Positions 22,704 to 44,179 of a DNA stretch of 64,000 nucleotides are shown in pieces. The translations under genes and the position numbers were made by a program. The notes under the pieces are model-generated. The model was not told where the DNA came from, made no database searches, and worked only from the letters and a program-made list of their open reading frames with translations. How positions within the stretch are numbered: position 1 is the stretch's first letter; the number at the start of each line of letters is the position of its first letter. The DNA comes from Parvibaculum sp. (GTDB lineage Bacteria; Pseudomonadota; Alphaproteobacteria; Parvibaculales; Parvibaculaceae), in contig NZ_JAUYUS010000068.1 of NCBI RefSeq assembly GCF_030694575.1, positions 1,924 to 65,923 of the forward strand. The letters run 5' to 3'.

Positions 22704-23711
22704 CTAGCGCGCCACGGCGAGAGGAAGAGCAGTTTCGTCCGGATCGCGCACCAGCGCCATCGCCTCGCGGATCACTTCCGCGCCCGCGCCGGGACGGGGC
22801 GCGTTTTCCGACAAATGGCGGCGGAAGGCGCGCGCGCCGGGGCAGCCCTGGAAGAGGCCCAGTATATGCCGCGTCATCGCATGGAGATGCGTTCCATGCG
22901 CCAATTCTCTTTGCACATAGGGCATGAAGGCATCCAGCACGTCGTGGCGGCTGGGTATCTCGCGGCCGTCGCCGTAGAAGCGGCGGTCGGCTTCGGCGAG
23001 AATATAGGGATGCTGATAGGCGGCGCGGCCGAGCATCGCGCCATCGACATGGGCCAAGTGCGCTTCCGCCTCGTCGAGCGTTTCGATGCCGCCATTGATG
23101 ATGATTTCCATGTCCGGCATCGTCTGCTTGAGGCGGTAGACCAGCGGATAGTCGAGCGGGGGCACGTCGCGGTTTTCCTTCGGCGACAGGCCTTCGAGCC
23201 AGGCCTTGCGCGCATGGACGATGAGCGTTTCGCAGCCGGCCCCGCGCACGGCCCTGGCCATGGCGGGCAGCGCCGCCTCCGGCTCTTGTTCGTCGACGCC
23301 GATGCGGCATTTCACGGTGACTGGAATGGAGACCGCTTCCTTCATCGCGTCGACGCAGCGCCCGACAAGATCCGGCTCACGCATCAGACAGGCGCCAAAG
23401 CGGCCGGACTGCACGCGGTCGGACGGGCAGCCGACGTTGAGATTGATTTCATCGTAGCCGAAATCCGCCGCGATCCGGGCACTCTCGGCAAGATCCGCCG
23501 GCTCCGAACCGCCGAGCTGCACCGCCACAGGGTGTTCCGACGGATCGAAACCAAGCAGGCGCGCGCGATCCCCATGCAGCACGGCGCCCGTCGTCACCAT
23601 CTCCGTATAGAGGAGTGCCCGGCGCGTAATGAGGCGCAGGAAGAACCGGTCATGACGATCGGTCCAGTCCATCATGGGGGCGACGGAGATTTTATTTGTC
23701 AGCGTATTCAA
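22704..23711 (-). CDS. dusA: tRNA dihydrouridine(20/20a) synthase
   Basis: SVAPMMDWTDRHDRFF, LYTEMVTTGA, EINLNVGCPSDRVQSGRFGACLM, VHARKAWLEGLSPKENR; TTG start. Confidence 0.95.
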   Translation of the reverse strand: MNTLTNKISVAPMMDWTDRHDRFFLRLITRRALLYTEMVTTGAVLHGDRARLLGFDPSEHPVAVQLGGSEPADLAESARIAADFGYDEINLNVGCPSDRVQSGRFGACLMREPDLVGRCVDAMKEAVSIPVTVKCRIGVDEQEPEAALPAMARAVRGAGCETLIVHARKAWLEGLSPKENRDVPPLDYPLVYRLKQTMPDMEIIINGGIETLDEAEAHLAHVDGAMLGRAAYQHPYILAEADRRFYGDGREIPSRHDVLDAFMPYVQRELAHGTHLHAMTRHILGLFQGCPGARAFRRHLSENAPRPGAGAEVIREAMALVRDPDETALPLAVAR

Positions 23712-23797
23712 GAGTTTACCCGGACCTCGGGAGCATTCAAGCGGCCTAGTTTACGCTGTTGTACCCGCCGATGCGCCTGATGGCACATGAAAATTCC
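23657..23797. repeat. dusA 5' end plus upstream DNA, copy 1 (att site of island)
   Basis: Aligns by eye with 54733-54874; shared blocks TCCATCATGGG, GGAGATTTTATTTGTC, GTATTCAA, GGGAGC, GGCCTAGTTTACGCT, GAAAATTCC. Confidence 0.9.
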
Positions 23798-23806
23798 GCC
23801 TGCCTT

Positions 23807-24478
23807 TCAGGCATCGCAAGCATCGGCATCTTGTGTTGAGAACTTCAAATGCTCAGGGCCATAAATCCTCAGGAAATCATCGAGCGCGCCGTCAAGATAT
23901 CGATCTATTTCCTCCGGCGCGAGCCTCACGTCTTCACCACAAAGCACCTTCATCTGGTACTCACCGAGTACAAGCGCGATGAAAACGTCGGCCGCGCGCG
24001 CCGGATCGCCGATGTGGAGCAAGCCGCGCAGTGATTGCTTCTCAAGATAGGTCGAGACAATTTGTCGTCCCCTGGCGGGTCCTGCTTTGTAGAAGGTGGC
24101 GCCGACTTCGGGGAAATATGGCGCCTCAGCAATAACGAGGCGGAGCAGCGACATCTTCGGCTGCTGGATCACGCCGTCGAAAAACTGTCTGGCGACGACG
24201 TGAAGCGCCTCACGGAGCGGGCGCTCGTCGATATCTTCCGAAGCGAGAACCCCGAAGAAATTCTGACACTCTTCTTCGATCATCTCCTGAAAGAGACCAG
24301 CCTTCCCGCCAAAGAGGTCATAGAGCGTTGCAAGCGATCCGCCCGATACGCCCACAATGTCGTTGAGACTGGTAGCGCCATATCCTTGCTGCAGAAAGAC
24401 ATCACGTGCGGCATCGAGAATCGCCTGTCGTCTTTTCTCGCGGCGAGTCGGTTCCTTGTGCCCCGGCCCCTGTCTCAT
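23807..24478 (-). CDS. TetR/AcrR family transcriptional regulator
   Basis: RRQAILDAARDVFLQQGYGATSLNDIV..SLATLYDLFGGKAGLF; last gene of the RND operon, 4-bp overlap with the OMF gene. Confidence 0.92.
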   Translation of the reverse strand: MRQGPGHKEPTRREKRRQAILDAARDVFLQQGYGATSLNDIVGVSGGSLATLYDLFGGKAGLFQEMIEEECQNFFGVLASEDIDERPLREALHVVARQFFDGVIQQPKMSLLRLVIAEAPYFPEVGATFYKAGPARGRQIVSTYLEKQSLRGLLHIGDPARAADVFIALVLGEYQMKVLCGEDVRLAPEEIDRYLDGALDDFLRIYGPEHLKFSTQDADACDA

Positions 24479-25923
24479 CGTTCTCCCCCCCCATTTTCAG
24501 CGGCGCTTTGTTCGAAGCCGCCCCCACCCAGAACCTTGTACAGAGTGACTGTATTGCTCACTTGCGCAAGCTGGGTGCGAATAAGCTCCTGCTCCGCTGC
24601 GTAAAGCGAGCGTTGCGCATCGAGCAAAGTGAGATAGCTGTCGATCCCGCTGCGATATCGGCGCTCCGCGAGCGCGTAGCTCTCCGCTGTCGCTGTCACC
24701 AGCGCACGTTGCGCGTCCAGTTGTCCACCGTAGGTGCCCTGCCCGGCCAGAGCATCCACCACTTCGCGGAAGGCCGTCTGAATACTCTTTTCGTAGCGCG
24801 CGATATTGATGTCCTTCTGGACCTCCGCGACTTCGAGGTTGGCGATGTTCCGCCCGCCTTCAAAAATCGGAATGCTGATCTGGGGCATGAAACTCCATGC
24901 GCCGGAGCCGGGCTCAAACAGGCCGGAAAGCGAGCTGCTGGCCGTGCCGCCTGCAGCCGTCAAGGTGATCCTGGGAAAGAAGGCGGCCCGCGCCGCGCCG
25001 ATATTCGCGTTGGCGCCCCGCAGAGAATGCTCAGCCTGCCTGATGTCGGGGCGGTTCGCGAGCAGGTCCGAGGGTAGTCCTGTCGGCACGTCCGCGACGA
25101 AGCGGTCGATGTCCTGCGCGTCGTCCAGCGTCGCATCGTCGACGGGCGCGCCGACAAGCAGCGTCAAGGCGTTGCGGTCCTGTGCGACCTGACGGATGAA
25201 GGCGAAGCGGTTCACCCGTGCCGTCTCGACAGCGGTCTGTGCCTGTGCGAGATCAAGTTTCGACGACATGCCTCGTTCATAGGTCATCTTTACGAGATCG
25301 TAGGAGCGCTCCTGCGCCGCCAGCGTTTCCTCGGTGAGCTGCAACAGGCGTTGGTCCGCCCTGAGCGTCAGCCAGGCATTGGCAACTTCGGCGATCAACG
25401 CGATCTGCGCGGCGCGGCGCGCTTCGTCCGTGGAAAAATATTCCCGAAGAGCCTGCTCGTTGAGGCTACGCACCCGGCCAAAGAGATCCAGCTCATAAGC
25501 TGCGACATTCGCCTGCACGCTGTAGCTCGTTCCCGTGCTCGCTTGTCCTGTGCCCGAAAGATCGCCCGGCACCCGCTCACGCGCCATCGTACCGTCGCCG
25601 CTGATGCCCGGCAGCAAATCCGCGCGCTGCACTCGGTATAATGCGCGCGCCTCTTCCACATTGAGCACCGCCTCACGCAGATCGCGATTGTTTTCCAGCG
25701 CCTGCGCGATCAGCTTTTGCATCGCGTCCGACAAAAAGAAGTCCCGCCAGCCGAGAGCAGCGAGATCGACATCGCCCTTCACGGAAATATTCACTTCGCT
25801 GTAGGCCGCGCCGGACGGCCACCTGGCCGGCAGAGGCGCATTGGGCCGTTCATAGTCCGGCGCCAATGTGCAGGCGCTGAGCAGAGGCAACGACAGGACG
25901 ATCAGGGGAAGAAACTTGTTCAT
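24475..25923 (-). CDS. RND efflux outer membrane lipoprotein (OprM/NodT family)
   Basis: Lipobox LLSAC; NNRDLR; [12 protein letters not shown]; [13 protein letters not shown]. Confidence 0.93.
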
Positions 25924-28900
25924 CGATCTGCTTCCGTTTCCGGCAGGGGCGTCGCTGTTGGTCGCTTCTGCAAGAAGCGCTGCACCACGACGAAGAAAAG
26001 CGGCACGAAGAAGATGGCGAGAACGGTCGCCGAGATCATGCCGCCCATGACGCCGATGCCGATGGCATTCTGGCTGCCCGATCCGGGGCCGGAGGCGATC
26101 GCCAACGGCATAACGCCGAGTGTGAATGCGAGCGACGTCATGATGATCGGCCGCAGACGCAATCGGGCCGCGTGCATCGTCGCCTCAATGAGGCTCTCAC
26201 CGCCCTGATAGAGATCTTTTGCGAACTCGACGATCAGAATGGCGTTTTTCGCAGCAAGGCCGATCGTAACGAGCAGGCCCACCTGGAAATAGACGTCGTT
26301 GGACAGTCCAGTCATGGTGGCCGCAAGCACGGCGCCGAGAACGCCGAGTGGAACGACGAGCATCACCGAGATCGGGATCGACCAGCTTTCATAAAGCGCG
26401 GCAAGACAGAGGAAAACGAACAGGAGCGAAAGCGCATAAAGAGCCGGCGCTTGCGCACCCGCCTGCCGTTCCTCATAAGACAATCCTGTCCACTCATAGC
26501 CAACGCCTTCCGGCAGCTGATCCATCAGTTCTTCCATTGCGACCATGGCGTCGCCCGAACTCACGCCCGGCGCAGCGGAGCCCTGTATCTGGCGCGAGGA
26601 TGATCCGTTGAAGCGCTCGAGCCGCGGCGAACCGTATGTCCAGTGCGTGGTCGCAAACGCGGAAAAAGGCACCATTTCACCGTTCGCATTGCGTACATGG
26701 AGCTTATAGACGTCCTCCGGCAGCATACGGAACTTCGCATCTGCCTGAAGATAGACTTTCTTGACGCGCCCCTGGTCGATGAAATCGTTGATATAGCTGG
26801 ATCCCCAAGCTGCCGACAGCGTGCTGTTGACGTCGGACAACGCGAGGCCAAGCGCCGCTGCCTTCTCCTGGTCCACATCGACGCGGAACTCCGGCATATC
26901 GTCCAGTCCGTTCGGCCGCACACCAACGAGTTTCGGATTTTGCGCAGCAAGTCCGAGAAGCTGGTTGCGCGCTTGCATAAGCTTATCGTGACCGATCCCA
27001 GCACGATCGATGAGCTGCATGTCGAAGCCCGAAGCCGTCCCGAGTTCCGTGATCGATGGTGGAATAATGGCGAAGGCCATGGCGTCCTGCATGGTGCTGA
27101 AAAAACCCATGGCGCGTTGCGCAACGCTGAAGGCGCTTGTCTCGTCCGTTCCGCGCTCGTCGAATGGCTTCAAGTTGATGAAAGCCATTGCCGAATTCTG
27201 GCCCGCGCCGGCGAAATTGAACCCCACGACCGAAAACAGGCCCTGCACGGAATCCTTCTCCTGCTCCATGAAATAATTTTCCACGAGCTTCACGGATTCC
27301 CGTGTGCGCTCTGCAGACGCGCCCGCCGGCGTCGTAATCAAAGTCATCATGAAGCCCTGATCCTCGTCCGGCAGGAAGGACGCCGGGAGACGGAGAAAGA
27401 GAGCACCGAGGATGACGACAATGACGGCGTAGATGGCCATATAGCGCACCGGCCCGGCGAGAAAGCGGCGCACGCCCGATTCGTATGAACGTCCGCCGCG
27501 GTCAAACATGCGGTTGAACCAGCCGAAGAAACCTCGTTTCTCCTCACCGTGGTTTGTCGTCGGCTTCAGGATCGTGGCACAGAGTGCGGGCGTCAGCACC
27601 AGTGCGACAATCACCGACAGCACCATGGCCGACACGATTGTCAGCGAGAACTGGCGATAGATCGCGCCGGTCGATCCAGCGAAGAACGCCATCGGAATAA
27701 GGACCGCACTGAGTACGAGACCAATGCCGATCAACGCGCCTGTAATCTGGCTCATGGACTTTCGGGTCGCCTCGCGTGGCGATAAGCCCTCCTCGTTCAT
27801 GACACGTTCGACGTTTTCCACCACTACGATCGCGTCGTCGACGAGGAGACCGATCGCCAGCACCATGCCGAACATGGTGAGCGTGTTGATCGTAAAGCCG
27901 AATGCGGCGAGAATTCCGAACGTACCGAGAAGAACGACAGGGACGGCGACGGCGGGAATGAATGTCGCACGGACGTTCTGCAGGAACAGATACATCACAA
28001 GAATGACAAGCACGATCGCTTCGGCAAGCGTCTTGATCACCTCGTTGATCGAGAGCCGGACGAAGGGAGTTGTATCGTACGGGATGACTGACTTCAGACC
28101 TTCGGGAAAGAAGGGTTCGAGATCGGCAAGTTTCGCGCGAACCGCTTCCGCCGTGTCGAGTGCATTCGCTCCCGTTGCCAGCCGGATGGCAATGCCGGAG
28201 GCCGGATCGCCGTTATAGCGTCCGATCGTTTGATAGCTCTCGGAACCAAGCTCGACACGCGCGACATCCTTGAGGCGCACCTGCGATCCATCCTCGTTGA
28301 CGCGGAGCAGAATGCTCTCGAACTGGGCCGGTGTTTCAAGGCGCGTCTGTGCCGTCACTGTGGCGTTGAGCTGCTGGCCTGCCACCGCCGGGCGAGCGCC
28401 GATCTGTCCTGCCGACACTTCCGCATTCTGTGCACTTATCGCGGTGGAAATATCCGATACCGCTACTCCGTAGCTCTGCAGTTTTTGCGGATCGATCCAG
28501 ATGCGCATGGCATGCTGAGGCCCGAAAAGCTGAATCTCGCCTACGCCGTTTACGCGGCTTAATGGATCCTGGATATGCGATGCGACGTAGTCAGCGATTT
28601 CGGTTTCGTTTATCCGGCCGTCCGTCGAAATGAACGCGATAACCATGAGGAAGTTTCTGGCTGATTTCGCGACCGTCACACCCTGCTGCTGCACTTCCTG
28701 CGGCAAGAGGGGCAGAGCCGCTTGCAGCTTGTTCTGCACCTGGACCTGGGCAATATCCGGATCGGCTTCCGGCTCGAACGTAAGCGTGACCGTACCGGTG
28801 CCCGATGAGTCGCTGGTCGAGGACATGTAGCGGAGGTAGTCGAGGCCGCTCATCTTTTGTTCGATGACCTGCGTCACGGTGTTTTCGACCGTTCGCGCGG

Positions 28901-29057
28901 AGGCCCCCGGATAGGTGCCGGTGACGGTCACCGAGGGGGGCGCGATAGGCGGATACTGCTCGATCGGCAGCTGCATGATCGACAGCACGCCGGCCAGCAT
29001 GATGACAATGGCAATGACCCAGGCGAAGACGGGACGGTCGATAAAGAAATTCGCCAT
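25920..29057 (-). CDS. RND efflux permease (AcrB/MexB family, HAE1)
   Basis: [14 protein letters not shown]; [18 protein letters not shown]; [15 protein letters not shown]; RLRPIIMTS. Confidence 0.96.
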
Positions 29058-29107
29058 GTTGAACTAACGCTCCGTTGAACCTGAATCGCGTCTACGCTCG
29101 CCGAGCC

Positions 29108-30292
29108 TCAGGGCTTCTGGCCCTGCTGCTGTGCTGCGCCCGCGGGCTGTTGTGTGCCCTCGCCTGCTTCCACCGCCTTGACCTCGACACCCGGCTGCAA
29201 TTTCTGCACACCCGCGATCACGACACGGTCGCCGGATTCGAGCCCCTCGCTTATGAGCCATTTGTCTCCGACGGCACGAAGCGCAGTGACGGTTTTCTGC
29301 GTCACCTTCTCGTCGTCGCCCACAAGCCAGACCTGCGCTTTTCCATCCGGTGTACGGGATACGCCCTGCTGCGGAACGAGGATCGCATTCTCGAGTACGC
29401 CCTGCTGCACGATGGCCCTTACGAACAGGCCAGGCAGAAGTTCGGCATTGGGATTGGGGAAGATTGCGCGCAACTGAACCATGCTGGTATCCGGTGCGAC
29501 TGTGACGCCCGAGAACTGAAGCTCGCCCGTGCCGCCATACTGCTCTTCGCTGCCTTCGAGCTTCAACGTTACGGGCGCCTTGCTGCCCTTCGCCCCCTGG
29601 ATCCTGCCCTCGGCCATTGCGCGCTTCATCCGGAGCAGGTCGGCCGCGGATTGCGTGAGATCGACATAGATGGGGTCGAGCTGCGTCACGGTGGCAAGTT
29701 CCGTCGCCTGGTTGGCTGTGACCAGCGCTCCTTCCGTCACCGAAGAGCGGCTGATGATGCCCGAAATCGGCGCAATGACTTTTGTGTAGGCGAGATTTGT
29801 TTCCGCGGTATCGAGGTTCGCCTTCGCCGTAGCGACATCCGCAGAACTCTGGGCGAGCGTAGCCATGACGTCGTCATAGTCCTGCTTGCTCACCGCGTTC
29901 ACAGCGACAAGTTCCTTGTAGCGGGCGGCGCGGGCCCTCTCGGCCTTCTCATTCGCTGCCGCCTTCGCTAACGCGGCCTTCGCCGCATCGAAATTTGCCT
30001 GATAAAGCGCGGGATCGATCTGGTAGAGCTGCTGCCCTTCCTCGACCTTTGTGCCCTCTTCAAAGAGACGCTTCTGGACGATGCCGGTCACCTGAGGCCG
30101 GATCTCCGCCACGCGGAAGGCCGATGTGCGCCCGGAAAGCTCCGTGATCACTTCAAGCTGCTCGGGCTTCACTGTTACTACACTGACTTCCGTCGGTGGG
30201 GGACCGGCCTGCTCTTCACCGCTGTCGCATCCGCTCAGGACGGCCGCCGCCACAAGGAAAGCCGCGAGCCTTACAATCACTCCGCCACGCAT
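29108..30292 (-). CDS. RND efflux periplasmic adaptor (AcrA/MexA family)
   Basis: Lipobox VLSGC; RVAEIRPQVTGIV; VTQLDPIYVDL; AGGAG RBS before ATG 30292. Confidence 0.93.
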   Translation of the reverse strand: MRGGVIVRLAAFLVAAAVLSGCDSGEEQAGPPPTEVSVVTVKPEQLEVITELSGRTSAFRVAEIRPQVTGIVQKRLFEEGTKVEEGQQLYQIDPALYQANFDAAKAALAKAAANEKAERARAARYKELVAVNAVSKQDYDDVMATLAQSSADVATAKANLDTAETNLAYTKVIAPISGIISRSSVTEGALVTANQATELATVTQLDPIYVDLTQSAADLLRMKRAMAEGRIQGAKGSKAPVTLKLEGSEEQYGGTGELQFSGVTVAPDTSMVQLRAIFPNPNAELLPGLFVRAIVQQGVLENAILVPQQGVSRTPDGKAQVWLVGDDEKVTQKTVTALRAVGDKWLISEGLESGDRVVIAGVQKLQPGVEVKAVEAGEGTQQPAGAAQQQGQKP

Positions 30293-30396
30293 CTCGACTC
30301 CTGTCGGTATCCACGAAAGGGAACCGTCCCGGTGCGCAGAAAAGGGGGAGTGCGCGAGCATGGCGGGGGGATATGCCACGACCGAGACGACTATTC

Positions 30397-30844: not shown

Positions 30845-31273
30845 TCAATCGATATATTGCTCGTTGCCGACAAAGCCAATCTTCGTAACGCCGAGGCGCT
30901 GTGCCGCGGCCAAGACTTTTGCCACATGATCGTATTCGACCGTGCGGTCAGGACGGAGATGTATCTCCGGCTCGGGAACAGCGGTGGCTGCGGCGAAAAA
31001 CTTCTCTTCCAATGCCGAAATATCGCTCAGGCTTTCACCGTTCCAATACGCAACACCGTCCGCATCCACCGTGAGCTGAACGACCGACGGCTCCTGCGGC
31101 GGCGCTTCGAGCGTGACAGCCTGAGGCATATCGAGCTTGATCGCGTGAGTTTGCAGCGGGATCGTGATGATGAGCATGACGAGAAGCACGAGCATCACGT
31201 CGATCAATGGCGTGGTGTTGATCTCCATCATGGGATCGTCTTCGCTACCCTCGCTGCCAACGTTCATTGCCAT
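30845..31273 (-). CDS. exbD: ExbD/TolR biopolymer transporter
   Basis: EINTTPLIDVMLVLLVMLIIT. Confidence 0.93.
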   Translation of the reverse strand: MAMNVGSEGSEDDPMMEINTTPLIDVMLVLLVMLIITIPLQTHAIKLDMPQAVTLEAPPQEPSVVQLTVDADGVAYWNGESLSDISALEEKFFAAATAVPEPEIHLRPDRTVEYDHVAKVLAAAQRLGVTKIGFVGNEQYID

Positions 31274-31287
31274 GAGGCCATGTCCTT

Positions 31288-31713
31288 CTAGCTGCCTTGA
31301 ACCGGTTCGGTGATGAAACCCACTTTGTGAATCCCGGCCCGCTGGATATCGAGAATAAGTCTGCCCACGGACTCAAAGCGCGTCATCCGGTCGCCGCGAA
31401 CCTGAATTTCAGGTTGAGTATCTGCCTGCGCTGCCTCGATGAGTTTCTTCAGCATCTCCTCGCGGGTCTCCACACGAGACGCATTCCAGTAGTAATGCCC
31501 ATCAGCATCAACCGCGATGGTGATGTTCCTGGGTTCTGTCTGATTGATCTCGCTACTCGCCTTTGGCAACTCAACCGGAACAGTCTGGATCGCAACCGGA
31601 ATGGTGATCAGGAAGATGATCAGAAGCACCAGCATTACGTCGACAAGCGGCGTCGTGTTGATAGCCGACATCACTTCATCTTCATCGCCGTTGCTTGCTA
31701 CGTTCATTGCCAT
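31288..31713 (-). CDS. exbD: ExbD/TolR biopolymer transporter
   Basis: AINTTPLVDVMLVLLIIFLIT. Confidence 0.93.
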   Translation of the reverse strand: MAMNVASNGDEDEVMSAINTTPLVDVMLVLLIIFLITIPVAIQTVPVELPKASSEINQTEPRNITIAVDADGHYYWNASRVETREEMLKKLIEAAQADTQPEIQVRGDRMTRFESVGRLILDIQRAGIHKVGFITEPVQGS

Positions 31714-31752
31714 GATCGTGCCTCGGCTTGATTTCGTCTACCCGACATGAAC

Positions 31753-32637
31753 CTACGCGACCTTTCCGGACAGAATGCGCAGGTGAACTTCGGTCGCAAA
31801 GCGGCGCGCTCGCGAAACAACGGCTTTGTTGCGGCGCGTCAGCAGGTTGTATCCAAGCACCGCAGGGACGGCCACGGCGAGGCCGATCGCCGTCATGATC
31901 AATGCTTCGCCAACCGGACCGGCAACCTTGTCGATGGATGCCTGGCCGGACACGCCGATCGCAACGAGCGCGTGATAGATGCCCCAGACAGTGCCAAAAA
32001 GACCGACAAAAGGTGCGGTTGAACCAACCGTCGCCAACAGTGCAAGACCGCCCTGGAGCTTCGCCGTCAGCCCTTCTACGGATCGGCTCAGCGCTGCTGT
32101 TGACCAATCCGACAGGGTGACTTCGCTGCTCAATCCCCGCTTGAATTGCGCCACCGCTTCTTCGCCATCCTCCGCAACGACACGATAGGAGTTGCGCTTT
32201 GGCAGAGCTTCAATGCCCTCCTTCAACGTATCCGTGGGTGCGAAGAGTTTGATGACACGATTGAACTGATCGAACATTCGGCGCTGTTCGAAGAGCTTGG
32301 TAATCAAGACGTACCATGAGCCCATGGACATGAACGCAAGGATCATCAGTGTCGCTTTGGAAACGAAGTCCCCCTGCTCCCACAGAGCACCCAGCCCATA
32401 GGGATTTTGTTCAGCTGCCGATGCCGGTTCGGCCTCCGCTATCTCGGGCAAGCCTGTGGCCTCTCCGGTCGCCTCCGCCGCCGCTTCGCCTTCGACGGGC
32501 GTTTCGGCAACGGCAGGTGCGGTTTCCTCCTGAGCATGGGCCGGCGCGTGAGCAACAGCCAACCCGACAGCAAAGGTCAGCGCAAGCGCAGTTGCCCTGA
32601 GAATGGGGAAAGTAAAATTGCCTCGGATCTTCATCAC
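31753..32637 (-). CDS. exbB: ExbB/MotA/TolQ proton channel protein
   Basis: LATVGSTAPFVGLFGTVWGIYHAL..GPVGEALIMTAIGLAVAVPAV. Confidence 0.93.
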   Translation of the reverse strand: MMKIRGNFTFPILRATALALTFAVGLAVAHAPAHAQEETAPAVAETPVEGEAAAEATGEATGLPEIAEAEPASAAEQNPYGLGALWEQGDFVSKATLMILAFMSMGSWYVLITKLFEQRRMFDQFNRVIKLFAPTDTLKEGIEALPKRNSYRVVAEDGEEAVAQFKRGLSSEVTLSDWSTAALSRSVEGLTAKLQGGLALLATVGSTAPFVGLFGTVWGIYHALVAIGVSGQASIDKVAGPVGEALIMTAIGLAVAVPAVLGYNLLTRRNKAVVSRARRFATEVHLRILSGKVA

Positions 32638-32686
32638 TGGGGTCCTTTACTCGTCTTCTGGAATGTCATCTAGGAAAGCATCAGCT

Positions 32687-33304
32687 TCAGTCGGTCAGCT
32701 TGAACGTCACGGCGAACTTCATCCAATGTCCAACCGGCCTTCCGTCCAGCGTTGCCGGGGTGAAGCGCCATGTGCGTCTGGCATGCATGAGCGCTGTCTT
32801 GTCGAGACGCGGAAAGCCACTGGACGTATCGATCCGGCCGTCTGTCACTTTCCCGTCCTCGGATACGAAGAGGATGAGAATCACACGGCCTTCCTCTCCC
32901 GCGCGCCTCGACGCGGCGGGATAGGGCGGCTGGGTATTGCCGTGACTTGGATCCGCGCGCGGGAGGACCGGTTGCGGCTCACGGACAACTGGCACCGGAT
33001 CCGGTTTGACCGTCTGTACCTGCTGGATTGTTTTCTGCGGTGCCGGTGCAGGCTTCACTGCGACTTCCGGTGGCGGCACATAAGCTTCAGGCGGCTTCAC
33101 GATTTCGGGTGGCGGCGGCGGTGCTTCCTTGGACGGCTCCGCAATCAGCGCAACCTGCAGCGGCTGCTGAACGGCTTCCACGACATCGCGGGCAAGGCCA
33201 CTCACGAGTGCCCACAAAAGTAGAAGATGCAGGCCGATAACCACACCAAGCCCGACAACACGGCTCGACGCTGGATGACCTTCCTGGAAATCAAGCGTAC
33301 TCAT
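32687..33304 (-). CDS. tonB: Energy transducer TonB
   Basis: N-terminal TM with conserved His, Pro-rich linker, QPPYPAASRRAGEEGRV, SSGFPRLD. Confidence 0.92.
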   Translation of the reverse strand: MSTLDFQEGHPASSRVVGLGVVIGLHLLLLWALVSGLARDVVEAVQQPLQVALIAEPSKEAPPPPPEIVKPPEAYVPPPEVAVKPAPAPQKTIQQVQTVKPDPVPVVREPQPVLPRADPSHGNTQPPYPAASRRAGEEGRVILILFVSEDGKVTDGRIDTSSGFPRLDKTALMHARRTWRFTPATLDGRPVGHWMKFAVTFKLTD

Positions 33305-33365
33305 TTGTCAGTCACTTTCACGCACCCGGTCCGCCACATGGATCGCGGACCGTTGGTTTTGTCCA

Positions 33366-33381
33366 TGCACAACAGGTGCCA
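33366..33381 (-). promoter_or_regulatory. Sigma54-like -24/-12 promoter upstream of tonB
   Basis: Minus strand TGGCAC-CTGTT-GTGCA (GG-N10-GC), intergenic, about 60 bp before the tonB ATG. Confidence 0.5.
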
Positions 33382-33388
33382 GTTCATC

Positions 33389-33913
33389 TCATCGAACCTC
33401 AAGCCCGCCAACAGTCAGCTCGGCAAATGCACTTCGGTAATAGACCAGAGGCACCGGATTCGGATCGACGCTCGCGGCTCTGACCAAACCGACCAAAATC
33501 TCGTGATCCCCGCCCGCAAGACTGTCTTCGAGGTCACATTCTATTGCGGCGGCAACGCCATCGATGAGCGGCGCACCGTTTTGTCCGTCACGGTGAGAAA
33601 TACCCTCAAACTTGGCGCTGCCGTTTGCTTTCGAAAAGCAGGTGGCGATGTCGTCCTGACCTGCCGAAAGAATATTCACGGAGAAAAATCCTGCCCTTTT
33701 TATGTGCGCCAGCGTCTCGCTTTTCAGCGCCAGTGCGACAAGGACCAGCGGCGGCGTGAGTGACAGCGCTGAAAATGCGCTAACCGTCGTGCCTACAGGA
33801 GCGCCGGCTGCTTTTGTAGTGACCACCGTGACCCCCGTGGCAAAACTGCCAAGCGCGTTCCGGTATTCAGCCTGGTCGACAACGGATGGCACGTATCTGG
33901 ATGTCTGGCTCAT
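33389..33913 (-). CDS. Flavin reductase (RutF/HpaC-like)
   Basis: YRNALGSFATGVTVVT, SAFSALSLTPPLVLV, GGDHEILVG, PLVYYR. Confidence 0.92.
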   Translation of the reverse strand: MSQTSRYVPSVVDQAEYRNALGSFATGVTVVTTKAAGAPVGTTVSAFSALSLTPPLVLVALALKSETLAHIKRAGFFSVNILSAGQDDIATCFSKANGSAKFEGISHRDGQNGAPLIDGVAAAIECDLEDSLAGGDHEILVGLVRAASVDPNPVPLVYYRSAFAELTVGGLEVR

Positions 33914-33929
33914 AGCCCTTGCCTCCGCA

Positions 33930-35300
33930 TCAGAATGGATTGTCGCCGTAGACAGGCTTGTATGCTGTCCGGGATGCCCCTTCGGGCGCACGGCCACAGA
34001 CAGACAACGCCGTCAGCGCATATATCAAAGCGCTTTTCGCCAGATCGGCCGGCGTCGGCCGCCATCGAGGCATGCCGGTCGTGACAGCCGGGATACGGTG
34101 CATGTTGAAGACATTCTGGTCGCGCCACATGCTGGAATAGACCGGGTTCGCGCGCTGCAACGGCTCACGAAGCGTCAGTTCCGTTGCCGCGCCGACGGCG
34201 GCGACCAGAGGTGCCACATCCGTTGCATCGGCTTCAAATCCGTGGCGAACAACCATCGGCTCGATCTCAAAGCCTTCGATATCGAACCCGCGCATCAATG
34301 CGGTCAGTTCGTGCAGAACATCGGCCGCTTTCTGCTTCGGCGTTAGGCCCGCCTCGAAATAGATAGAAACGACTTCCGTGCCGGTGCCGAAGGAATAGGG
34401 AACGCCGGCCTTGATGGAGTCGATCTGTGTCTTCGGAACCGAGATGCCGCCGGCACTCTCATAATAGTTGCGCTCAGGATAGGTCTTTCCCCATTTGTGC
34501 AAGGCCTCGATGATAGGACCGAGCCGGTAAACCGGATTTGGGTGCTGGAGAATGTCGTCCGGGTAATCGAGAATTGGCGTGAATATTCCTTGCCCGAATA
34601 TTCGTATACGGAACACAACGTACCCACAGCCAACCCATGTCAGGCCGAAATCGCATCCCTCTGCAGCAATCGCATAATCCGGCGCCACACCGCCGTGATG
34701 AAACAGATAGTGCGCACCTATATCCTTGCCGAGGTAATCGACGCCGCGCCTGTCCTCTATTGGCTCCGGACCTATCTCACCCGGACATGCCGTGAGATAG
34801 AGCTTGCCCGCAAGCGGGATGTTCGCCTTGCGGAGCGCTTTCGCCGCTATCATGAAACAGCTCATCGGGCCCCGATCATTCGCGATCGGATAACCGAACA
34901 GTTTTCCATCTTCCAACCAACACTCCAGCCATTCGCGATTGGCGAGCGTCTCCGGCCGATACTTGGCGAAGTCGAGATCGGGCTCATAGGTCGGCGCTTC
35001 GGTGTCGAGATGTGCGGTGAAGAGGAGATTCGCGCCGGGAGCGTCGCCGCCATACTCGCCAATTACATTCTGACGTTCCGGCGTAGCTCCGACCGAACGG
35101 GGACTGAAACCTTCGCGCTGCATCCAGTCGAAGACATACTTGCTTGCAGCCGCCTCGTTCCGCGATGGGCTCGGGATATTTCCAAGTTCCAAAGCGAGGT
35201 TGCAGAGCTCGTCTTCGTCTATCGCCGCTTCGAGCGCAGCCCGATCTTCATCGGTCACCTGATAAGGCGCCTTGCCTTCAATTTTCAGAAGGTCAGCCAT
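33930..35300 (-). CDS. M20-family (ArgE/DapE-like) peptidase/deacylase, divergent
   Basis: IPSPSRNEA, NVIG..LLFTAHLDT, GYPIANDRGP, GEIG, AIAAEG. Confidence 0.75.
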   Translation of the reverse strand: MADLLKIEGKAPYQVTDEDRAALEAAIDEDELCNLALELGNIPSPSRNEAAASKYVFDWMQREGFSPRSVGATPERQNVIGEYGGDAPGANLLFTAHLDTEAPTYEPDLDFAKYRPETLANREWLECWLEDGKLFGYPIANDRGPMSCFMIAAKALRKANIPLAGKLYLTACPGEIGPEPIEDRRGVDYLGKDIGAHYLFHHGGVAPDYAIAAEGCDFGLTWVGCGYVVFRIRIFGQGIFTPILDYPDDILQHPNPVYRLGPIIEALHKWGKTYPERNYYESAGGISVPKTQIDSIKAGVPYSFGTGTEVVSIYFEAGLTPKQKAADVLHELTALMRGFDIEGFEIEPMVVRHGFEADATDVAPLVAAVGAATELTLREPLQRANPVYSSMWRDQNVFNMHRIPAVTTGMPRWRPTPADLAKSALIYALTALSVCGRAPEGASRTAYKPVYGDNPF

Positions 35301-35961
35301 TGACGCCTCCCCAGGAGGCTTCGATTTCCGCCGTTGCGCTCAGAATGGCGCAGTTGAGCTCCAGCATCCGCAACGCAGCACCGTGAACATCGTCGCCATA
35401 AGCGGCACAGGCATCCGCCGCGATGATGACGTGATAGTCCCGATGGAAGGCATCGCGAACCGTGCAGTCAATGCAGCATTCCGTAGTGAGGCCGCAGGCG
35501 ATGAGCGTGTCGACGCCGAGCTTCGCAAGCACCTCGGAAAAATCCGTGTCGTGGAAGGCGCTGTACTTTGGCTTCATCACGACCGGGTCCCCCGGGAGGG
35601 GTTGCGGCCCGTAAAACGCCGCACCCGGCATTCCGGCACGGCAGACTCCGCTTTCGGCCTCAGGATCGACACCACGCCGGCGCATGCGTTCGGTCCAGAC
35701 GGGCGAGTCCGTTTCTGGCCTCGTCTCGAGACCGACAAAAACGACCGCCACACCTGCCGCGCGGGCGGCCGCAACCAGCCTCTCGGCATTGGCGATCGCG
35801 GCAGGCACCGCACTCATATCGACGCCGAATCCGGCAAGCAGACCATCGGGTGCGGCGAAGTCGACCTGGATGTCGATCACACAAAGCGCCGTACGACCGG
35901 GCGCGATCCATTCCGCCAGACCGGTGGCGGCAGCGCGGCTTGTGAGGGGAACGGCTGTCAT
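35293..35961 (-). CDS. Cysteine hydrolase / isochorismatase family (RutB-like amidohydrolase)
   Basis: ALCVIDIQVDF, KPKYSAFHDT, GLTTECCIDCTVRDAF (Asp-Lys-Cys triad). Confidence 0.9.
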   Translation of the reverse strand: MTAVPLTSRAAATGLAEWIAPGRTALCVIDIQVDFAAPDGLLAGFGVDMSAVPAAIANAERLVAAARAAGVAVVFVGLETRPETDSPVWTERMRRRGVDPEAESGVCRAGMPGAAFYGPQPLPGDPVVMKPKYSAFHDTDFSEVLAKLGVDTLIACGLTTECCIDCTVRDAFHRDYHVIIAADACAAYGDDVHGAALRMLELNCAILSATAEIEASWGGVNG

Positions 35962-37025
35962 GAGAAGTATGCCTTCAGGCCCGGCAGAACCTCAGCGCCC
36001 ATCGTCTTCAATCCCTTGACGTAGTCCGGGAAAATCAGCATCACGCCATCGAGCTCGCAGCCTTCAATCTGCTCCTTGATCTTCTGCTGACAGGTGGCGG
36101 GTGTGCCGGCCACGGTGTGGGTCATGAAAGTTTCCTTGGCTTTCTCTCCCATCACGCTCGGGCTGCCGTCCACTTCCATGCCGTAGCTGCGCATCATTCC
36201 CTGCGCGGCGCCCCAGTCGAGACCTTCCTTGTAGTATGCGACCGTCTTCTCGGCCTCGGCGTCGGTTTCACCGAAAACGACGGTGCTCATCGCGAAGACC
36301 TTGATGGTGGTGTCGTGTTCGGTGGCAACGCGCCGCGCCATCCGGCTGATCCGCAGTGTATCTTCAGCCGTCTTGCCACCGATGAAGCAGGCATCGGTGT
36401 GCTGCACGGTGAAGCGCAAGCCCCTCTCCGACTGGCCGGCGCAGATCAGATAAGGGCGCGGACTGGAGACGGGCTTCGGCTGAGAAATGCAATCCTTGAA
36501 CTTGAAAAACTCACCGTCGTAGTCGACGTGATCCTTCTCCCACATCGTCTTGACGAGCGTCGTCCATTCCTCGGCGAAGCGATAGCGGCCATCGTGGTCG
36601 AGCGTTTCGGGCCAGGCGCCCATCTGGTCGAACTCGCTTTTGTAGGAGCCCGAGACGATGTTGAGGCCGGCGCGGCCGCCCGAAATCTGGTCGAGCGTCG
36701 CGATCATCTTGGCGACAACCGCAGGGTTCTGCAGCAGCGTATGAACGGTGGCGATGATGCGCGCATTCTTCGTCACCTCGGCGATGCCCGCCATCATGGT
36801 GACGGACTCGAGCGAAGTGCCCCAATGATCGGTGTCGCCGCCGAAGCCTCGCCACTTCATCATCGACATGATGAAATCGAGACCGATCTCGTCCGCCAGA
36901 ATGGCGATTTCGCGGTTCTGCCGGTAGGACGCATCGAGCGGGGGCGTGTTCTTCGAAATGATCCAGCCGCCATTGGCGATGGGAAGGAAGACACCGAACT
37001 GTTTCTTTGCCTCGGAGACGGACAT
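35958..37025 (-). CDS. LLM-class flavin-dependent monooxygenase, RutA-like
   Basis: FGVFLPIANGGWIIS, SMMKWRGFGG, LESVTMMAGIAEVT, EFDQMGAWP, ICAGQSERG parallel to pyrimidine monooxygenase RutA. Confidence 0.85.
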   Translation of the reverse strand: MSVSEAKKQFGVFLPIANGGWIISKNTPPLDASYRQNREIAILADEIGLDFIMSMMKWRGFGGDTDHWGTSLESVTMMAGIAEVTKNARIIATVHTLLQNPAVVAKMIATLDQISGGRAGLNIVSGSYKSEFDQMGAWPETLDHDGRYRFAEEWTTLVKTMWEKDHVDYDGEFFKFKDCISQPKPVSSPRPYLICAGQSERGLRFTVQHTDACFIGGKTAEDTLRISRMARRVATEHDTTIKVFAMSTVVFGETDAEAEKTVAYYKEGLDWGAAQGMMRSYGMEVDGSPSVMGEKAKETFMTHTVAGTPATCQQKIKEQIEGCELDGVMLIFPDYVKGLKTMGAEVLPGLKAYFS

Positions 37026-37085
37026 TTTCTTCTACTGACCTCTTGCTTGCCTTACTGAGCGGATCGCGGACCGATCGCTGATCTG

Positions 37086-38396
37086 TTAGTCGGCGACGTG
37101 ACCGAGGTCACCCGCCCGGGTGAGGATCGCCGCCGTCATGATTTCCTCTTCCTCGACCTCTTCCGCTTCCGCGCGGAGCGGCGGGCGCATGAACAGCACC
37201 GCGACCAGTACCGCTGCCGGCACCAGCGTGTAGAGAAAGAAGGCGTAGGAGAACGAGCCCGTGACGTCGCGCATGTAGCCGCCCAGGAAAGGACCAAAGG
37301 AAGCAAGCGTTGCTGCAACGTTCATGAAGGAGAACAGTTCGAGATAGGCACTGCGTCCATAGTAATTCATCAGCAGGACGCTCGTGGCGAGGAAGGTCAT
37401 GCCATAGCCAACGCCGATGCCGATGGCATAGACCATGAGAGCGAACCAGTTCGTACCAACGCCGAGCCCGACCATGCCCGCCACGAGAAGTGCAAGCGCC
37501 ACGATCAGCAGAATCTTTGGATCGACATATTCACCGATGAAGCCACTGACCGCTCGCGAGGCTGCATTGAGGAATGCCTCGAAGCTCAGAAGACCGCCAG
37601 CGACGCCCATGGCAATGCCGATCTCGGTCAGATGACCGACGGACAGACTGTTTACGGTGATCCCGCAAAGAAGGAACGCCACATAGCCAGCGGCAATAAT
37701 GTAAAATTGCGGCGTGCGAAGCGCCTGAAGAGCTGTCCAAGACTGCTTTGTAACATACACACCCGACGCGCTTTCAACCGCGGCCGCGGTGGCAACGTCG
37801 GCTGCGCGGCGATCCTCATCCTCGCCTTCGCGCAGGAAGGCGGCCGTGATCACGCCGGCAATCGCTGTGAGGACCGCGACGATCATCCAGTGCATCCTCC
37901 ATTCGTCCCAGACGCCGACGGCCAGGAAGTAGATCAACGGACCGACGATGCCGCCCACGCCGCCAATCGTGAAGTAGATGCCGAACGCCATCGACTGCTT
38001 CTTGAAGGAGCGAGCGATCATGAAAGTGCCGGGAACGGTGGCGACGAACGAGAAGCCCGTGCCCGCGAGCAACATGGCCGCAAAATAGGCCGGCACGCTC
38101 TGCACGAAATAGAGAAGGAGATAGCCGGCGACGAGAATGGCGGTGCCGAAGAGAATCGTCGCCCGCACGCCAAACCTGCGGATCATGAAAGCGGGGGGAT
38201 AGCTCGAAAGCCCGCAGGAAATACCGAGAATGGTGAAGCCGAGCCCGGCCGCCGTCCAGTCCCAACCCAGTTCGGAAACCATGTCGGGCAAGACGACACC
38301 GAGCGAGGTGAAGGTTCCCGCCGTGACGAGAAAGAACATGAAGCTGAAGGACAGCAGAACGAACCACGGATATATCGTCTCTTTCGCGTCGTTCAT
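37086..38396 (-). CDS. MFS transporter
   Basis: About 12 TM segments; MIRRFGVRATILFG; exact start uncertain (38396 or 38417). Confidence 0.88.
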   Translation of the reverse strand: MNDAKETIYPWFVLLSFSFMFFLVTAGTFTSLGVVLPDMVSELGWDWTAAGLGFTILGISCGLSSYPPAFMIRRFGVRATILFGTAILVAGYLLLYFVQSVPAYFAAMLLAGTGFSFVATVPGTFMIARSFKKQSMAFGIYFTIGGVGGIVGPLIYFLAVGVWDEWRMHWMIVAVLTAIAGVITAAFLREGEDEDRRAADVATAAAVESASGVYVTKQSWTALQALRTPQFYIIAAGYVAFLLCGITVNSLSVGHLTEIGIAMGVAGGLLSFEAFLNAASRAVSGFIGEYVDPKILLIVALALLVAGMVGLGVGTNWFALMVYAIGIGVGYGMTFLATSVLLMNYYGRSAYLELFSFMNVAATLASFGPFLGGYMRDVTGSFSYAFFLYTLVPAAVLVAVLFMRPPLRAEAEEVEEEEIMTAAILTRAGDLGHVAD

Positions 38397-38448
38397 CTGC
38401 TGGCCTCCAGACTTCATGCACTTCGGTTACTGATAGACGCTTCGGTAC

Positions 38449-40926: not shown

Positions 40927-40988
40927 GCTTGACGCCCCCAATCGCAGTACAAAGAAAGAGCTTGCTTCTTCGCAGATGCGATATCATT

Positions 40989-41004
40989 AGCAAGGCGCGT
41001 GCCA
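40989..41004 (-). promoter_or_regulatory. Sigma54 promoter for the TBDR-MFS-rut-like operon
   Basis: Minus strand TGGCAC-GCGCC-TTGCT is a full -24/-12 consensus, about 60 bp upstream of the TBDR start; AT-rich IHF-like tract just upstream. Confidence 0.8.
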
Positions 41005-41500
41005 GATATTTAATCCTTTGTTTTCAAATGATTATTTCTGATTTTCTGTGCAGATGCAGTTGATGGGTGACAAAATATCATCCTGCAGCGCAGCAGATCA
41101 GCGAGACCCTGCACGAGATCGCGGCACGCTCCGCCCGGCCAAGCGATTTGATCAAGTATTCGTTCGTCCTTGCTACGCTTTGGCGCCGCTCCAGGGCAAT
41201 TCAACAGCACCCATCTCCCGCATCCCAGCTGCACATGCCACAGTTTCCGGCCGGCAGGGCTCCCCCACATCTGACGGAAACAAGGCCAAACGGGCCGGAA
41301 AACCGAGGCCGCCAGCCTCTTGCTCTCACCAATTGCCCCTTTCGAAGCAGGCAAGGTGAGATTGCCAATTTGTTGGTCAGCAAGGCGCGAGCGAACGAAG
41401 CGCCGGAAATCCTCTCAACTCATAGGGCGCACCGGGGCAAGACGCGCGCAGGAGAGAAGCCATAGCTTTGCCCGACAAAATACAAGAAGTGGCGTAACGA

Positions 41501-42355
41501 ATGACCATCGATCTGCAGCTCCGCACTCGCCCGCTCATGCCGGGCTTCGGCGTGGAAATCTTCGAAACCGACCTGAAGACCGCCGGTGCTGATGCACGAC
41601 AGCAGGTCGTCGATCGCTTCCATGAGAATGGTGCGATACTTTTGCGCAATCAGGACATGACGCCGGACGACCTTATGTCGTTCATTGATCTTTTCGGCGA
41701 TCCTGAAGATCATACGCAGACGCAGTTCACGCTGCCCGGATATCCTAAGATATTTATTCTGTCCAACCGCATCGTCGACGGTCGATCGATAGGGGCGCAC
41801 AATGACGGTGTAGGCTGGCACACCGACTATTCCTACAAGGAAGAGCCGGTCATGTGCACGATGCTCTACGCAGTCGAAGTTCCGCCGGAAGGTAGCGACA
41901 CGCTGCTTGCAGACCTCTGCGCTGCATATAACGAACTTCCCGATGAGCGAAAGGCGCAGCTCGACAAGCTGATCCTTCATCACAGCTATCAGCACCTCAT
42001 GTCGACCCGCCAGTTTGGCCGGATGGAACTCAGCGATGAGATGAAAGCCGCCAATCCGGACGTCTATCACCCGCTTGTCCGCTCCCATCCCGCCGACGGA
42101 CGGAAAGCGCTGTGGGTCAGCACCGGCACCGTTAAGGGTATTGTCGGTATGGACGACGACGCGGCGCTGGCGCTTCTCGATGAACTCGTGGAGTTTGTCA
42201 CCAACGAACGGTTTGTCTACCGGCACAAATGGCAAGTCGGCGATATTCTCATGTGGGACAATCGCTGCACGTTGCACACAGGCACTGTCTTCGACGATAC
42301 GAAGTACATACGGCTGATGCATCGTTTGTGGGTCAAGGGTGACAAACCCTTCTAG
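41501..42355 (+). CDS. TauD/TfdA family Fe(II)/2-oxoglutarate dioxygenase
   Basis: GWHTDYSY, GSDTLLAD, MWDNRCTLH. Confidence 0.93.
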   Translation: MTIDLQLRTRPLMPGFGVEIFETDLKTAGADARQQVVDRFHENGAILLRNQDMTPDDLMSFIDLFGDPEDHTQTQFTLPGYPKIFILSNRIVDGRSIGAHNDGVGWHTDYSYKEEPVMCTMLYAVEVPPEGSDTLLADLCAAYNELPDERKAQLDKLILHHSYQHLMSTRQFGRMELSDEMKAANPDVYHPLVRSHPADGRKALWVSTGTVKGIVGMDDDAALALLDELVEFVTNERFVYRHKWQVGDILMWDNRCTLHTGTVFDDTKYIRLMHRLWVKGDKPF

Positions 42356-42387
42356 CGCGTCGTTTAACGCAAGAAAGACGAGGCGGT

Positions 42388-43239: not shown

Positions 43240-43266
43240 AAAAGGCGGCTCCATGCCGCCCTTTTT
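43239..43266. terminator. Bidirectional intrinsic terminator
   Basis: AAAAAGGCGGC-TCCAT-GCCGCCCTTTTT between convergent genes. Confidence 0.7.
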
Positions 43267-43290
43267 CATCTCGGAAAGATCGTGGTCCCG

Positions 43291-44106: not shown

Positions 44107-44179
44107 CGCCCTGATCCTGCGAAACGCTCACTGGAGCTCTTACCGAGGGCATGACGATCACGCCCTATCCCAAACGCTA

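What the first reader, a model, noticed from the sequence alone, without database searches (positions are those of the whole stretch)
23712..24478. No integrase at either end: immobilised island, trans-mobilised satellite or tandem array
Upstream of copy 1 comes directly a TetR stop codon. Upstream of copy 2 comes an MMPL remnant. No tyrosine-recombinase ORF is visible anywhere in the window. Both copies nonetheless conserve ~90 bp upstream of the dusA start, including a TAAACT -10-like hexamer on the minus strand. Either the island carries a close homologue of the native promoter, or both 5' ends are element-derived. In the second case the DNA right of 54.87 kb is an older island in a tandem array, and a third dusA 5' remnant should lie beyond the window.
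Basis: inference. Interest (0 to 1): 0.68.

Follow-up and report, generated by a model that had tools for sequence, protein, structure and literature searches.

The report
Integrase-less island at the dusA gene
A 31-kb block of foreign metabolic and efflux genes sits in the start of the tRNA-modification gene dusA of a Parvibaculum bacterium, bounded by the attachment sites of a known island family but lacking that family's integrase, so it is most likely a stranded, helper-dependent island.

Summary
Window 23657-23797 and 54733-54874 are direct repeats (about 80% identical) of the first 19 nt of dusA plus about 120 nt upstream. No tyrosine recombinase lies on the contig. The genus is Parvibaculum. 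One relative, P. lavamentivorans DS-1, carries the published 58-kb dusA-specific island with a dusA-associated integrase (DAI) next to dusA. Its far end carries the same roughly 210-bp unit found here: X arm, core TCCATCATGGG, Y arm. Seven further genomes of the genus hold a unit away from dusA. In six of them it lies 8-20 kb (one contig has three) from dusA or another unit, with no integrase between. Only 3 of 49 genomes encode the DAI, and this genome has none. The 31 kb are foreign: module B is 75% identical to DS-1 against 86-95% in the flanks, and GC is lower. The left arm of the distal site has lost both GCACACG repeats. Both junctions are unchanged in every public sample found. Verdict: an integrase-less, CIME-type derivative of the DAI island family, now immobile, lying in front of a nas module that is itself bounded by two units in another species. 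No third remnant exists in this assembly.

The parts
22704..23675 (-). dusA (tRNA-dihydrouridine synthase A), intact, 323 aa
   Evidence: Pfam Dus 3e-83. Start ATGATGGACTGGAC at 23675. 92% aa identity to DS-1 DusA.
23657..23678 (.). attR-type site: dusA-type half GATCGGTCCAG followed by core TCCATCATGGG (23668-23678)
   Evidence: Alignment of 21 copies. The core is 98% conserved across units. The position coincides with the published DS-1 island end at dusA ATG+8.
23679..23797 (-). Y1 arm: island-borne replacement of the dusA upstream region, ending in GGCACATGAAAATTCC
   Evidence: Repeat with 54755-54874. Conserved to about +149 in all units. Closest to the outer unit of G007 (82%), which is also followed by this TetR gene.
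23807..24478 (-). TetR/AefR-type repressor, first island gene; terminator-like hairpin at 23813-23797
   Evidence: PF00440 and PF14246. Hairpin.
24475..30379 (-). Module A: outer-membrane factor, RND pump and membrane-fusion protein
   Evidence: Pfam OEP, ACR_tran, HlyD. 83% nt identity to DS-1's copy, which lies between yacG and icd, far from dusA.
30845..54549 (.). Module B: ExbD-ExbD-ExbB-TonB, flavin reductase, Rut-like genes, MFS, TonB-dependent receptor, TauD x2, SDR, Rieske/LigB, amidases, AraC-amidase, PfkB, PhoD, glyoxalase
   Evidence: Pfam. Fully syntenic in G006, G044 and DS-1, but only 75% nt identical to all three.
54684..54743 (.). X arm of the distal unit, degenerate. The proximal 35 nt are kept (GCAGATCGCTCAAA). 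Both GCACACG repeats are lost.
   Evidence: Distal X is 41% to consensus against at least 70% in nine other units. No GCACA[CT]G motif here.
54744..54754 (.). Core TCCATCATGGG of the attL-type site (displaced dusA start ATGATGGA)
54755..54874 (-). Y2 arm: the older dusA upstream region left behind by the insertion
   Evidence: 78% to the Y consensus.
54875..55439 (-). 5' fragment of an MMPL-family transporter gene, frameshifted and truncated at the Y2 arm
55620..63915 (-). Module C: cobA, nasA, nirD, nirB, nrtB-like (assimilatory nitrate reduction). Continues to C21:69834, beyond the window.
   Evidence: Pfam. Attached directly to dusA and a Y arm in G044 and G002. Bounded by a second unit in G002.

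Best explanation
Window 23.68-54.74 kb is a non-autonomous member of the dusA-specific genomic island family. Normally a dusA-associated integrase (DAI) drives these islands.

Inferred steps:
- A circular molecule carrying an attP of about 210 bp (X arm, core TCCATCATGGG, Y arm) recombined with the core in the first codons of dusA.
- The Y arm then supplied dusA with a new promoter region and start.
- The old start and upstream region were left 31 kb away, fused to the island's X arm.
- The integrase acted in trans. It came either from a co-resident DAI island that has since been lost, or from a composite element.
- Alternatively, the arrangement was imported ready-made from another Parvibaculum.

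Shown here:
- The island carries no integrase or transfer genes.
- Its cargo is xenologous copies of two operon blocks, an RND efflux operon and a TonB-dependent uptake and catabolic cluster. In the sister species these sit in ordinary chromosomal places.
- This genome has no DAI.
- The distal site has lost the paired GCACACG repeats that I take to be arm-type integrase binding sites.

The island is therefore now fixed. It lies in front of the nas module, which occupies the same att-bounded position in other species.
For: 1. Family identity. G042 is P. lavamentivorans DS-1. Its 380-aa integrase is divergent from dusA and about 165 bp upstream. Farrugia et al. list its island as 1096727..1154718. 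These are exactly my core positions at dusA and at the far unit.

2. Integrase position across genera. The same integrase sits at the same place in Methylosinus, Phenylobacterium, Bradyrhizobium, Rhodopseudomonas and others.

3. Shared unit. Ten units flanking unrelated cargo have a sharply bounded conservation profile. Background identity is 0.25-0.35, the X arm (-60 to -1) is 0.5-0.8, the core is 0.98, and the Y arm reaches about +149.

4. Arm motif. GCACA[CT]G sits at -59 and -48 in most units, against 0.08 per kb in the genome. Related GTGTGC/GTGCACAC repeats lie beside the integrase start in DAI islands of other genera.

5. Integrase-less islands elsewhere. G002, G006, G007, G018 and G022 hold an island bounded by a second unit, and G051:C79 holds three units. 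None has a listed PF00589 hit in or beside it (the list stops at E~5e-12).

6. DAI distribution. DAI orthologues occur only in G042, G051 and G059. G000 has none.

7. Empty or simpler sites. G049 has AMP-ligase, Y arm and dusA adjacent. G044 and G002 have dusA, Y arm and cobA-nas adjacent.

8. Foreign origin. Module B is 75.3% identical to DS-1, against 90.4% for the left flank and 85.8% for flank R. G042, G044 and G006 follow the species tree among themselves. The best B-like match anywhere in the genus is 77%. GC is 0.57-0.61 against 0.63-0.68 in the flanks.

9. Fixation. The B-unit-MMPL junction is contiguous in contigs from three studies. The TetR-dusA junction is identical in six public contigs.
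Against: - No integrase was ever seen with this island, so site-specific entry into this lineage is inferred, not shown.
- The A-to-nas region is more similar between G000 and G007 (84-88%) than their flanks are (81%). G007 looks like a G000-type arrangement with a 26-kb deletion. The whole array may therefore have moved between species as one piece, possibly by homologous recombination.
- Module B has no X arm at its end in G006, G044 or DS-1. How B came to be bounded by one is unknown.
- Part of what I call the distal X arm in G000 could instead be a hairpin inherited from a B-R type junction.
- The Y arms of copies 1 and 2 have no close orthologue in DS-1.
Confidence: 0.7

Rival explanations
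1. This lineage never saw a site-specific event. The whole block (Y1, A, B, unit, nas) was imported from another Parvibaculum as linear DNA. It replaced the resident dusA-to-R interval by homologous recombination in dusA and in flank R. The att units are passengers from the donor's history.
For: A and nas are closer between G000 and G007 (84% and 88%) than their flanks are (81%). The Y1-TetR junction is shared with G007. G000 has no native copy of B next to R. The genome has no DAI.
Against: dusA identity to DS-1 stays at 85-95% up to the core, with no clear switch. Flank R is 85.8% identical to DS-1 right up to the junction. nas shows species-tree-like identity to G044 (82% against a flank value of 81.5%) while B does not, so the block is not of one origin.
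Confidence: 0.2
2. The island is a currently active satellite that a helper DAI island arriving in the cell would excise and move.
For: The core and Y arms are intact. G051 shows a DAI island together with integrase-less units in one genome.
Against: The distal X arm lacks both GCACACG repeats, which every other unit keeps at least in part. Both junctions are invariant in all public contigs found. No empty-site or circle junction was seen, although only contigs, not reads, were available.
Confidence: 0.12
3. The second copy is a duplicated promoter or regulatory module, or a chance repeat, unrelated to recombination.
For: On the minus strand the displaced Y2 arm points into the glyoxalase gene and could drive it.
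Against: The X arm is conserved next to unrelated cargo in ten units. The unit matches the published ends of the DS-1 island. There is no Rfam family and no consensus promoter call. blastn E is 1e-28.
Confidence: 0.03

Closest known systems
dusA-specific genomic islands with DAI integrases (Farrugia et al. 2015, PMC4482086), in particular the 58-kb island of P. lavamentivorans DS-1 (NC_009719.1:1096727..1154718)
   Same: Same target (the first codons of dusA). Same core. Same type of X arm at the far end. The island supplies a new dusA 5' end and upstream region. The Y arm is homologous to the integrase-proximal arm of the DS-1 island.
   Different: There is no integrase. The Y arm ends where the integrase gene would begin, and a TetR gene follows 10 nt later. 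That survey started from the integrase, so it could not see such islands.
CIMEs (cis-mobilizable elements) and site-specific accretion in streptococcal ICESt1/ICESt3 elements (Pavlovic 2004 and Bellanger 2011, as cited in PMC5704250)
   Same: The element retains attL and attR but has no integration or transfer genes. It lies in tandem with other elements at one site. Gene capture is a feature.
   Different: The host is an alphaproteobacterium, the target is a gene's 5' end, and the partner is a DAI island rather than a conjugative element. Descent from a decayed autonomous island is not shown. The cargo looks like captured chromosomal operons.
Tandem ssrA-specific islands of Dehalococcoides (PMC3146451)
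   Same: Arrays of islands at one gene, each leaving a repeat of the gene's end, with metabolic cargo.
   Different: There each island carries its own recombinase, according to my recollection of that paper. Only its abstract was read here.
Integron cassette arrays (analogy only)
   Same: One integrase can serve many integrase-less units that share a recombination site. New units enter next to the fixed site.
   Different: The modules are 8-31 kb rather than single genes. The sites are attP-like with arms, not attC hairpins. The integrase is not resident at the platform.

Membership tests
DAI-type dusA-specific genomic island (Farrugia 2015) | Inserted in the 5' end of dusA | tested here: met
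   Core at 23668-23678 spans the dusA start. Spacing to the second core is 31,076 bp.
DAI-type dusA-specific genomic island (Farrugia 2015) | Integrase gene whose 5' end adjoins the 5' end of dusA | tested here: not met
   TetR lies there instead. No PF00589 hit on the contig. No DAI homologue in the genome.
DAI-type dusA-specific genomic island (Farrugia 2015) | Flanked by about 21-bp semi-conserved direct repeats (attL/attR) | tested here: met
   GATCGGTCCAGTCCATCATGGG against GATCGCTCAAATCCATCATGGG. Same positions as the published DS-1 ends.
DAI-type dusA-specific genomic island (Farrugia 2015) | The island supplies the new dusA 5' end, and the old 5' end remains at the far side | tested here: met
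   All far copies carry the X-type left half, and all dusA-linked copies carry the dusA-type left half.
DAI-type dusA-specific genomic island (Farrugia 2015) | Excises as a circle and restores dusA | not testable with these tools
   Only contigs were available. No alternative junction was seen at the right end.
CIME (cis-mobilizable element) | Retains attL and attR | tested here: met
   Cores and Y arms are intact. The X arm is partly degenerate.
CIME (cis-mobilizable element) | Lacks integration and transfer genes | tested here: met
   Pfam on the ORFs I took for the island's genes and on the unassigned long ORFs, and the six-frame PF00589 search.
CIME (cis-mobilizable element) | Derived by decay of an autonomous element | tested here: inconclusive
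   No integrase remnant. The Y arm is homologous to the integrase-proximal arm of DS-1. The cargo resembles chromosomal operons.
CIME (cis-mobilizable element) | Mobilised when an autonomous element integrates beside it | not tested
   Only co-occurrence is seen: G051 has a DAI at dusA and integrase-less units.

The most novel reading that the evidence does not exclude
In Parvibaculum the dusA attachment system works as a cassette platform. Rare DAI-carrying islands (3 of 49 genomes) supply the integrase in trans. Integrase-less modules of 8-31 kb, each ending in the same roughly 210-bp unit, are excised, reordered and exchanged between species. These modules include ordinary chromosomal operons that were captured between two sites. 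Here they are the RND operon, which in DS-1 lies at yacG-icd, and the catabolic cluster, which in DS-1 abuts flank R.
Probability: 0.25. Interest if true: 0.75.

Novelty: new variant of a known kind. Interest (0 to 1): 0.5.

Why it matters
dusA islands have been found by looking for their integrase, so islands without one are invisible to that approach. In this genus the integrase-less forms outnumber the autonomous ones. They share a well-defined 210-bp site and carry whole metabolic operons. That gives a concrete, testable case of trans- or cis-mobilisation and gene capture outside the streptococcal model. It also shows that 'no integrase' does not mean 'not an island'. For this genome, it explains why an efflux operon and a nitrogen-scavenging cluster are of foreign origin and sit in front of the nitrate-assimilation genes.

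Tried and rejected
- Third remnant. blastn (word size 7) and an nhmmer profile of 13 units against the whole assembly found only the two window copies plus two orphan X arms on C40 and C14. Nothing lies at the nas-R junction.
- Model in which the nas island moved into a B-R junction, leaving A-B native. I considered it because G044 and DS-1 have B abutting R and because G000 shares a hairpin-like stretch with G044. I rejected it as the main reading because B of G000 is an outgroup to all other B copies.
- Target-site duplication. Rejected, because the copies are only 80% alike.
- Homologous-recombination import. The sliding identity of dusA against DS-1 shows no clear breakpoint, but 60-nt windows are noisy. 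This is kept as a rival.
- RNA element in the repeat. No Rfam hit above noise.
- Sigma-70 promoter. No call at 9 of 12 matches.
- Other integrases of G000. They are XerC (my reading of the sequence; Pfam gave PF00589 only), XerD (same basis), one P4-type integrase and one short pseudogene. None resembles the DAI.
- Read-level test for excision. The right junction shows contigs only.
It did give the genus name and the DAI neighbours in other genera.
- Closest TetR homologues outside the species are at most 84% identical, so no donor was found.

Full report
**What is in the window**

dusA lies on the minus strand at 22704-23675 and starts ATGATGGACTGG. Its first 19 nt and about 120 nt upstream (23657-23797) recur at 54733-54874 in the same orientation. 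Identity is 76-83% (blastn E=1.4e-28).

The 31 kb between the copies holds these genes:
- a TetR repressor (23807-24478);
- an RND efflux operon (24475-30379), which I call module A;
- a 24-kb block of ExbBD/TonB, a TonB-dependent receptor, oxygenases, amidases, PfkB, PhoD and a glyoxalase-family gene (30845-54549), which I call module B.

Right of copy 2 come a frameshifted 5' fragment of an MMPL transporter gene, then cobA-nasA-nirD-nirB-nrtB, which I call module C. GC is 0.57-0.61 inside against 0.63-0.68 outside.

A six-frame PF00589 search finds four tyrosine recombinases in the genome, none on this contig. By my reading of their sequences two are XerC and XerD. One is a P4-type integrase and one is a short pseudogene.

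**Which family this is**

The genus is Parvibaculum. Genome G042 has a 380-aa integrase divergent from dusA and about 165 bp upstream of it. It also has a copy of the repeat 58 kb away.

Supplementary Table S1 of Farrugia et al. 2015 lists the dusA-specific island of P. lavamentivorans DS-1 at NC_009719.1:1096727..1154718. These coordinates fall exactly on my two cores, so G042 is DS-1 and the repeat is the family's attachment site.

Homologues of this integrase (35-67% identity) occupy the same position next to dusA in Methylosinus, Phenylobacterium, Bradyrhizobium, Rhodopseudomonas and others.

**Anatomy of the site**

I aligned 13 distal copies from seven genomes. Ten of them flank unrelated cargo, and I profiled those.
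- Pairwise identity is 0.25-0.35 in the cargo.
- It rises to 0.5-0.8 from -60 to -1. I call this the X arm: TGCACACGCAGAGCACACG-N10-TAAGTCATTGAGA...GCAGATCGCTCAAA.
- It is 0.98 in the core TCCATCATGGG.
- It stays at 0.55-0.97 to about +149. I call this the Y arm, with GTTTACGC nearly invariant.
- It then falls back to 0.23-0.30.

All distal copies have the X-type left half (GATCGCTCAAA). All dusA-linked copies have the dusA-type half (GATCGGTCCAG). The crossover therefore lies in or right of the core.

GCACA[CT]G sits at -59 and -48, one helical turn apart, in most units. It occurs at 0.08 per kb in the genome. The DS-1 integrase-dusA spacer holds an inverted copy of the X motif. DAI islands of other genera carry GTGTGC...GTGTGCAC beside the integrase start, while more distant DAIs carry a different repeat. 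I infer that these are arm-type binding sites. This was not tested.

**Integrase-less islands are the rule in the genus**

Of 49 genomes, 21 matched the unit query at E<=0.001. Some of these matches cover only the conserved dusA start. Beyond G000, seven genomes hold a unit away from dusA, as follows.
- G002, G006, G007, G018 and G022 have a second unit 8-20 kb from dusA.
- G051 contig C79 has three units about 10 and 8.6 kb apart.
- DS-1 has a further unit about 790 kb from dusA, beside a copy of the C40-type island.

None of these islands has a listed PF00589 hit. The list stops at E~5e-12.

DAI orthologues exist only in DS-1, G051 (98% identical, next to dusA) and G059 (frameshifted, next to dusA). 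G000 has none, even at E=1e-5. tblastn against the window gives only noise.

**Empty and simpler sites**

- G049 has AMP-ligase, Y arm and dusA with nothing between. That Y arm is 94% identical to the outer Y arm of G022.
- G044 and G002 have dusA, Y arm and cobA-nas directly adjacent.
- In G002 the nas module ends in an X arm and a second unit next to AMP-ligase.
- The nas module has the same right boundary (C21:69834) in G000, G002, G007 and G044.
- G019 and G013 have dusA within 1.5-2 kb of flank R (C21:70121-73710).

Everything between dusA and R is therefore accessory, and its order differs between species:
- G044: C, 7.7 kb, B, R.
- DS-1: DAI island, unit, 16 kb, B, R.
- G007: island, unit, 4.4 kb, A, C, further genes, R.
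- G000: A, B, unit, C, R.

**The 31 kb are foreign**

| Region | G000 vs DS-1 | G000 vs G044 | G000 vs G006 |
|---|---|---|---|
| Left flank (nt) | 90.4% | 81.5% | 80.8% |
| Flank R (nt) | 85.8% | 78.3% | not compared |
| Contigs further right (nt) | 88-95% | not compared | not compared |
| Module B (nt) | 75.3% | 74.7% | 74.6% |

Among the other three genomes, B follows the species tree: DS-1 to G044 80.6%, DS-1 to G006 81.2%, G044 to G006 92.6%. Per-gene protein identities agree. No genome of the genus has a B closer than 77%.

Module A is 83% identical to DS-1's copy. That copy lies between yacG and icd, far from dusA. G000 has no second copy of A, B or C.

**State of the island here**

The distal X arm of G000 matches the consensus at 41% in the -62..-36 stretch, against at least 70% in all other units. 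It has no GCACA[CT]G motif. The proximal X arm, the core and the Y arm are normal.

The B-unit-MMPL junction is contiguous in metagenome contigs from three independent studies. The RND-OMF-TetR-dusA-TauE order is the same in six public contigs that carry the identical TetR.

With no DAI in the genome, the island is best read as fixed.

**What remains open**

- Entry by site-specific recombination into this lineage is inferred. The A-to-nas region of G000 is closer to that of G007 (84-88%) than the flanks are (81%). G007 looks like the G000 order minus window 30429-56383. Array segments therefore also travel between species, perhaps by homologous recombination.
- B has no X arm in G006, G044 or DS-1. 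How it became bounded by a unit is not known.
- The Y arms do not identify which copy is orthologous to DS-1's native arm.
- No third remnant exists in this assembly.

**Comparison with known systems**

By target, core, arms and the replacement of the dusA 5' end, this works like a DAI island. It fails that family's defining feature, the adjoining integrase.

It meets the definition of a CIME: attL and attR retained, integration and transfer genes absent. Descent from a decayed autonomous element is not shown.

I rate it a new variant of a known kind.

Noticed in passing
G000 contig C40:2249-23285 (outside the window): A 20-kb metal-efflux-type island, 93% identical to the island that sits at dusA in G022. 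It ends in an intact-looking X arm and a degenerate core (TCCTTCATAGG). About 180 bp further lies a short (~208 aa) tyrosine recombinase gene with an in-frame TAG. It is not at dusA in this genome. In DS-1 a related copy lies 790 kb from dusA, beside a P4-type integrase.
   Followed up: partly
G000 contig C14:108540-108625 (outside the window): An orphan X arm (CCGCACACGCAGAGAACACG...CCCAAATCCATC) with a truncated core, away from dusA. It may mark a secondary insertion site or a translocated array end.
   Followed up: no
L042 (G013:C9) 4583-4825: The first ~90 nt of dusA plus a short upstream stretch are duplicated in tandem, about 150 bp apart, in a genome without a Y-type arm.
   Followed up: no
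G007:C19, about 24335-28745 (L036/L141): A 4.4-kb insertion (SDR, kinase-like gene, second TetR) sits at the 3' end of the TetR gene that follows the outer unit. The same 22 nt of TetR sequence are present on both sides.
   Followed up: partly
window 48651-51065: A single 804-aa ORF joins an AraC-type HTH domain to an acetamidase/formamidase domain (Pfam). It is conserved at 86-87% aa identity in DS-1, G044 and G006.
   Followed up: partly
window 30395-30425: A palindromic TGTAATGTA...TACATTACA motif lies upstream of the RND operon. It is conserved at the DS-1 copy of the operon and is a likely TetR operator.
   Followed up: no
G000 contig C73:22560-22903: Where DS-1 has the RND operon next to yacG, this genome's contig runs into an Rhs/YD-repeat-like sequence and then ends. 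The native site of module A is therefore altered or unassembled.
   Followed up: no
L058 (G049:C1) 6036-6195: A 39-residue fragment 59% identical to the DAI N-terminal part lies just beyond the AMP-ligase block, in the genome whose dusA site is empty. It may be a trace of a former island.
   Followed up: no
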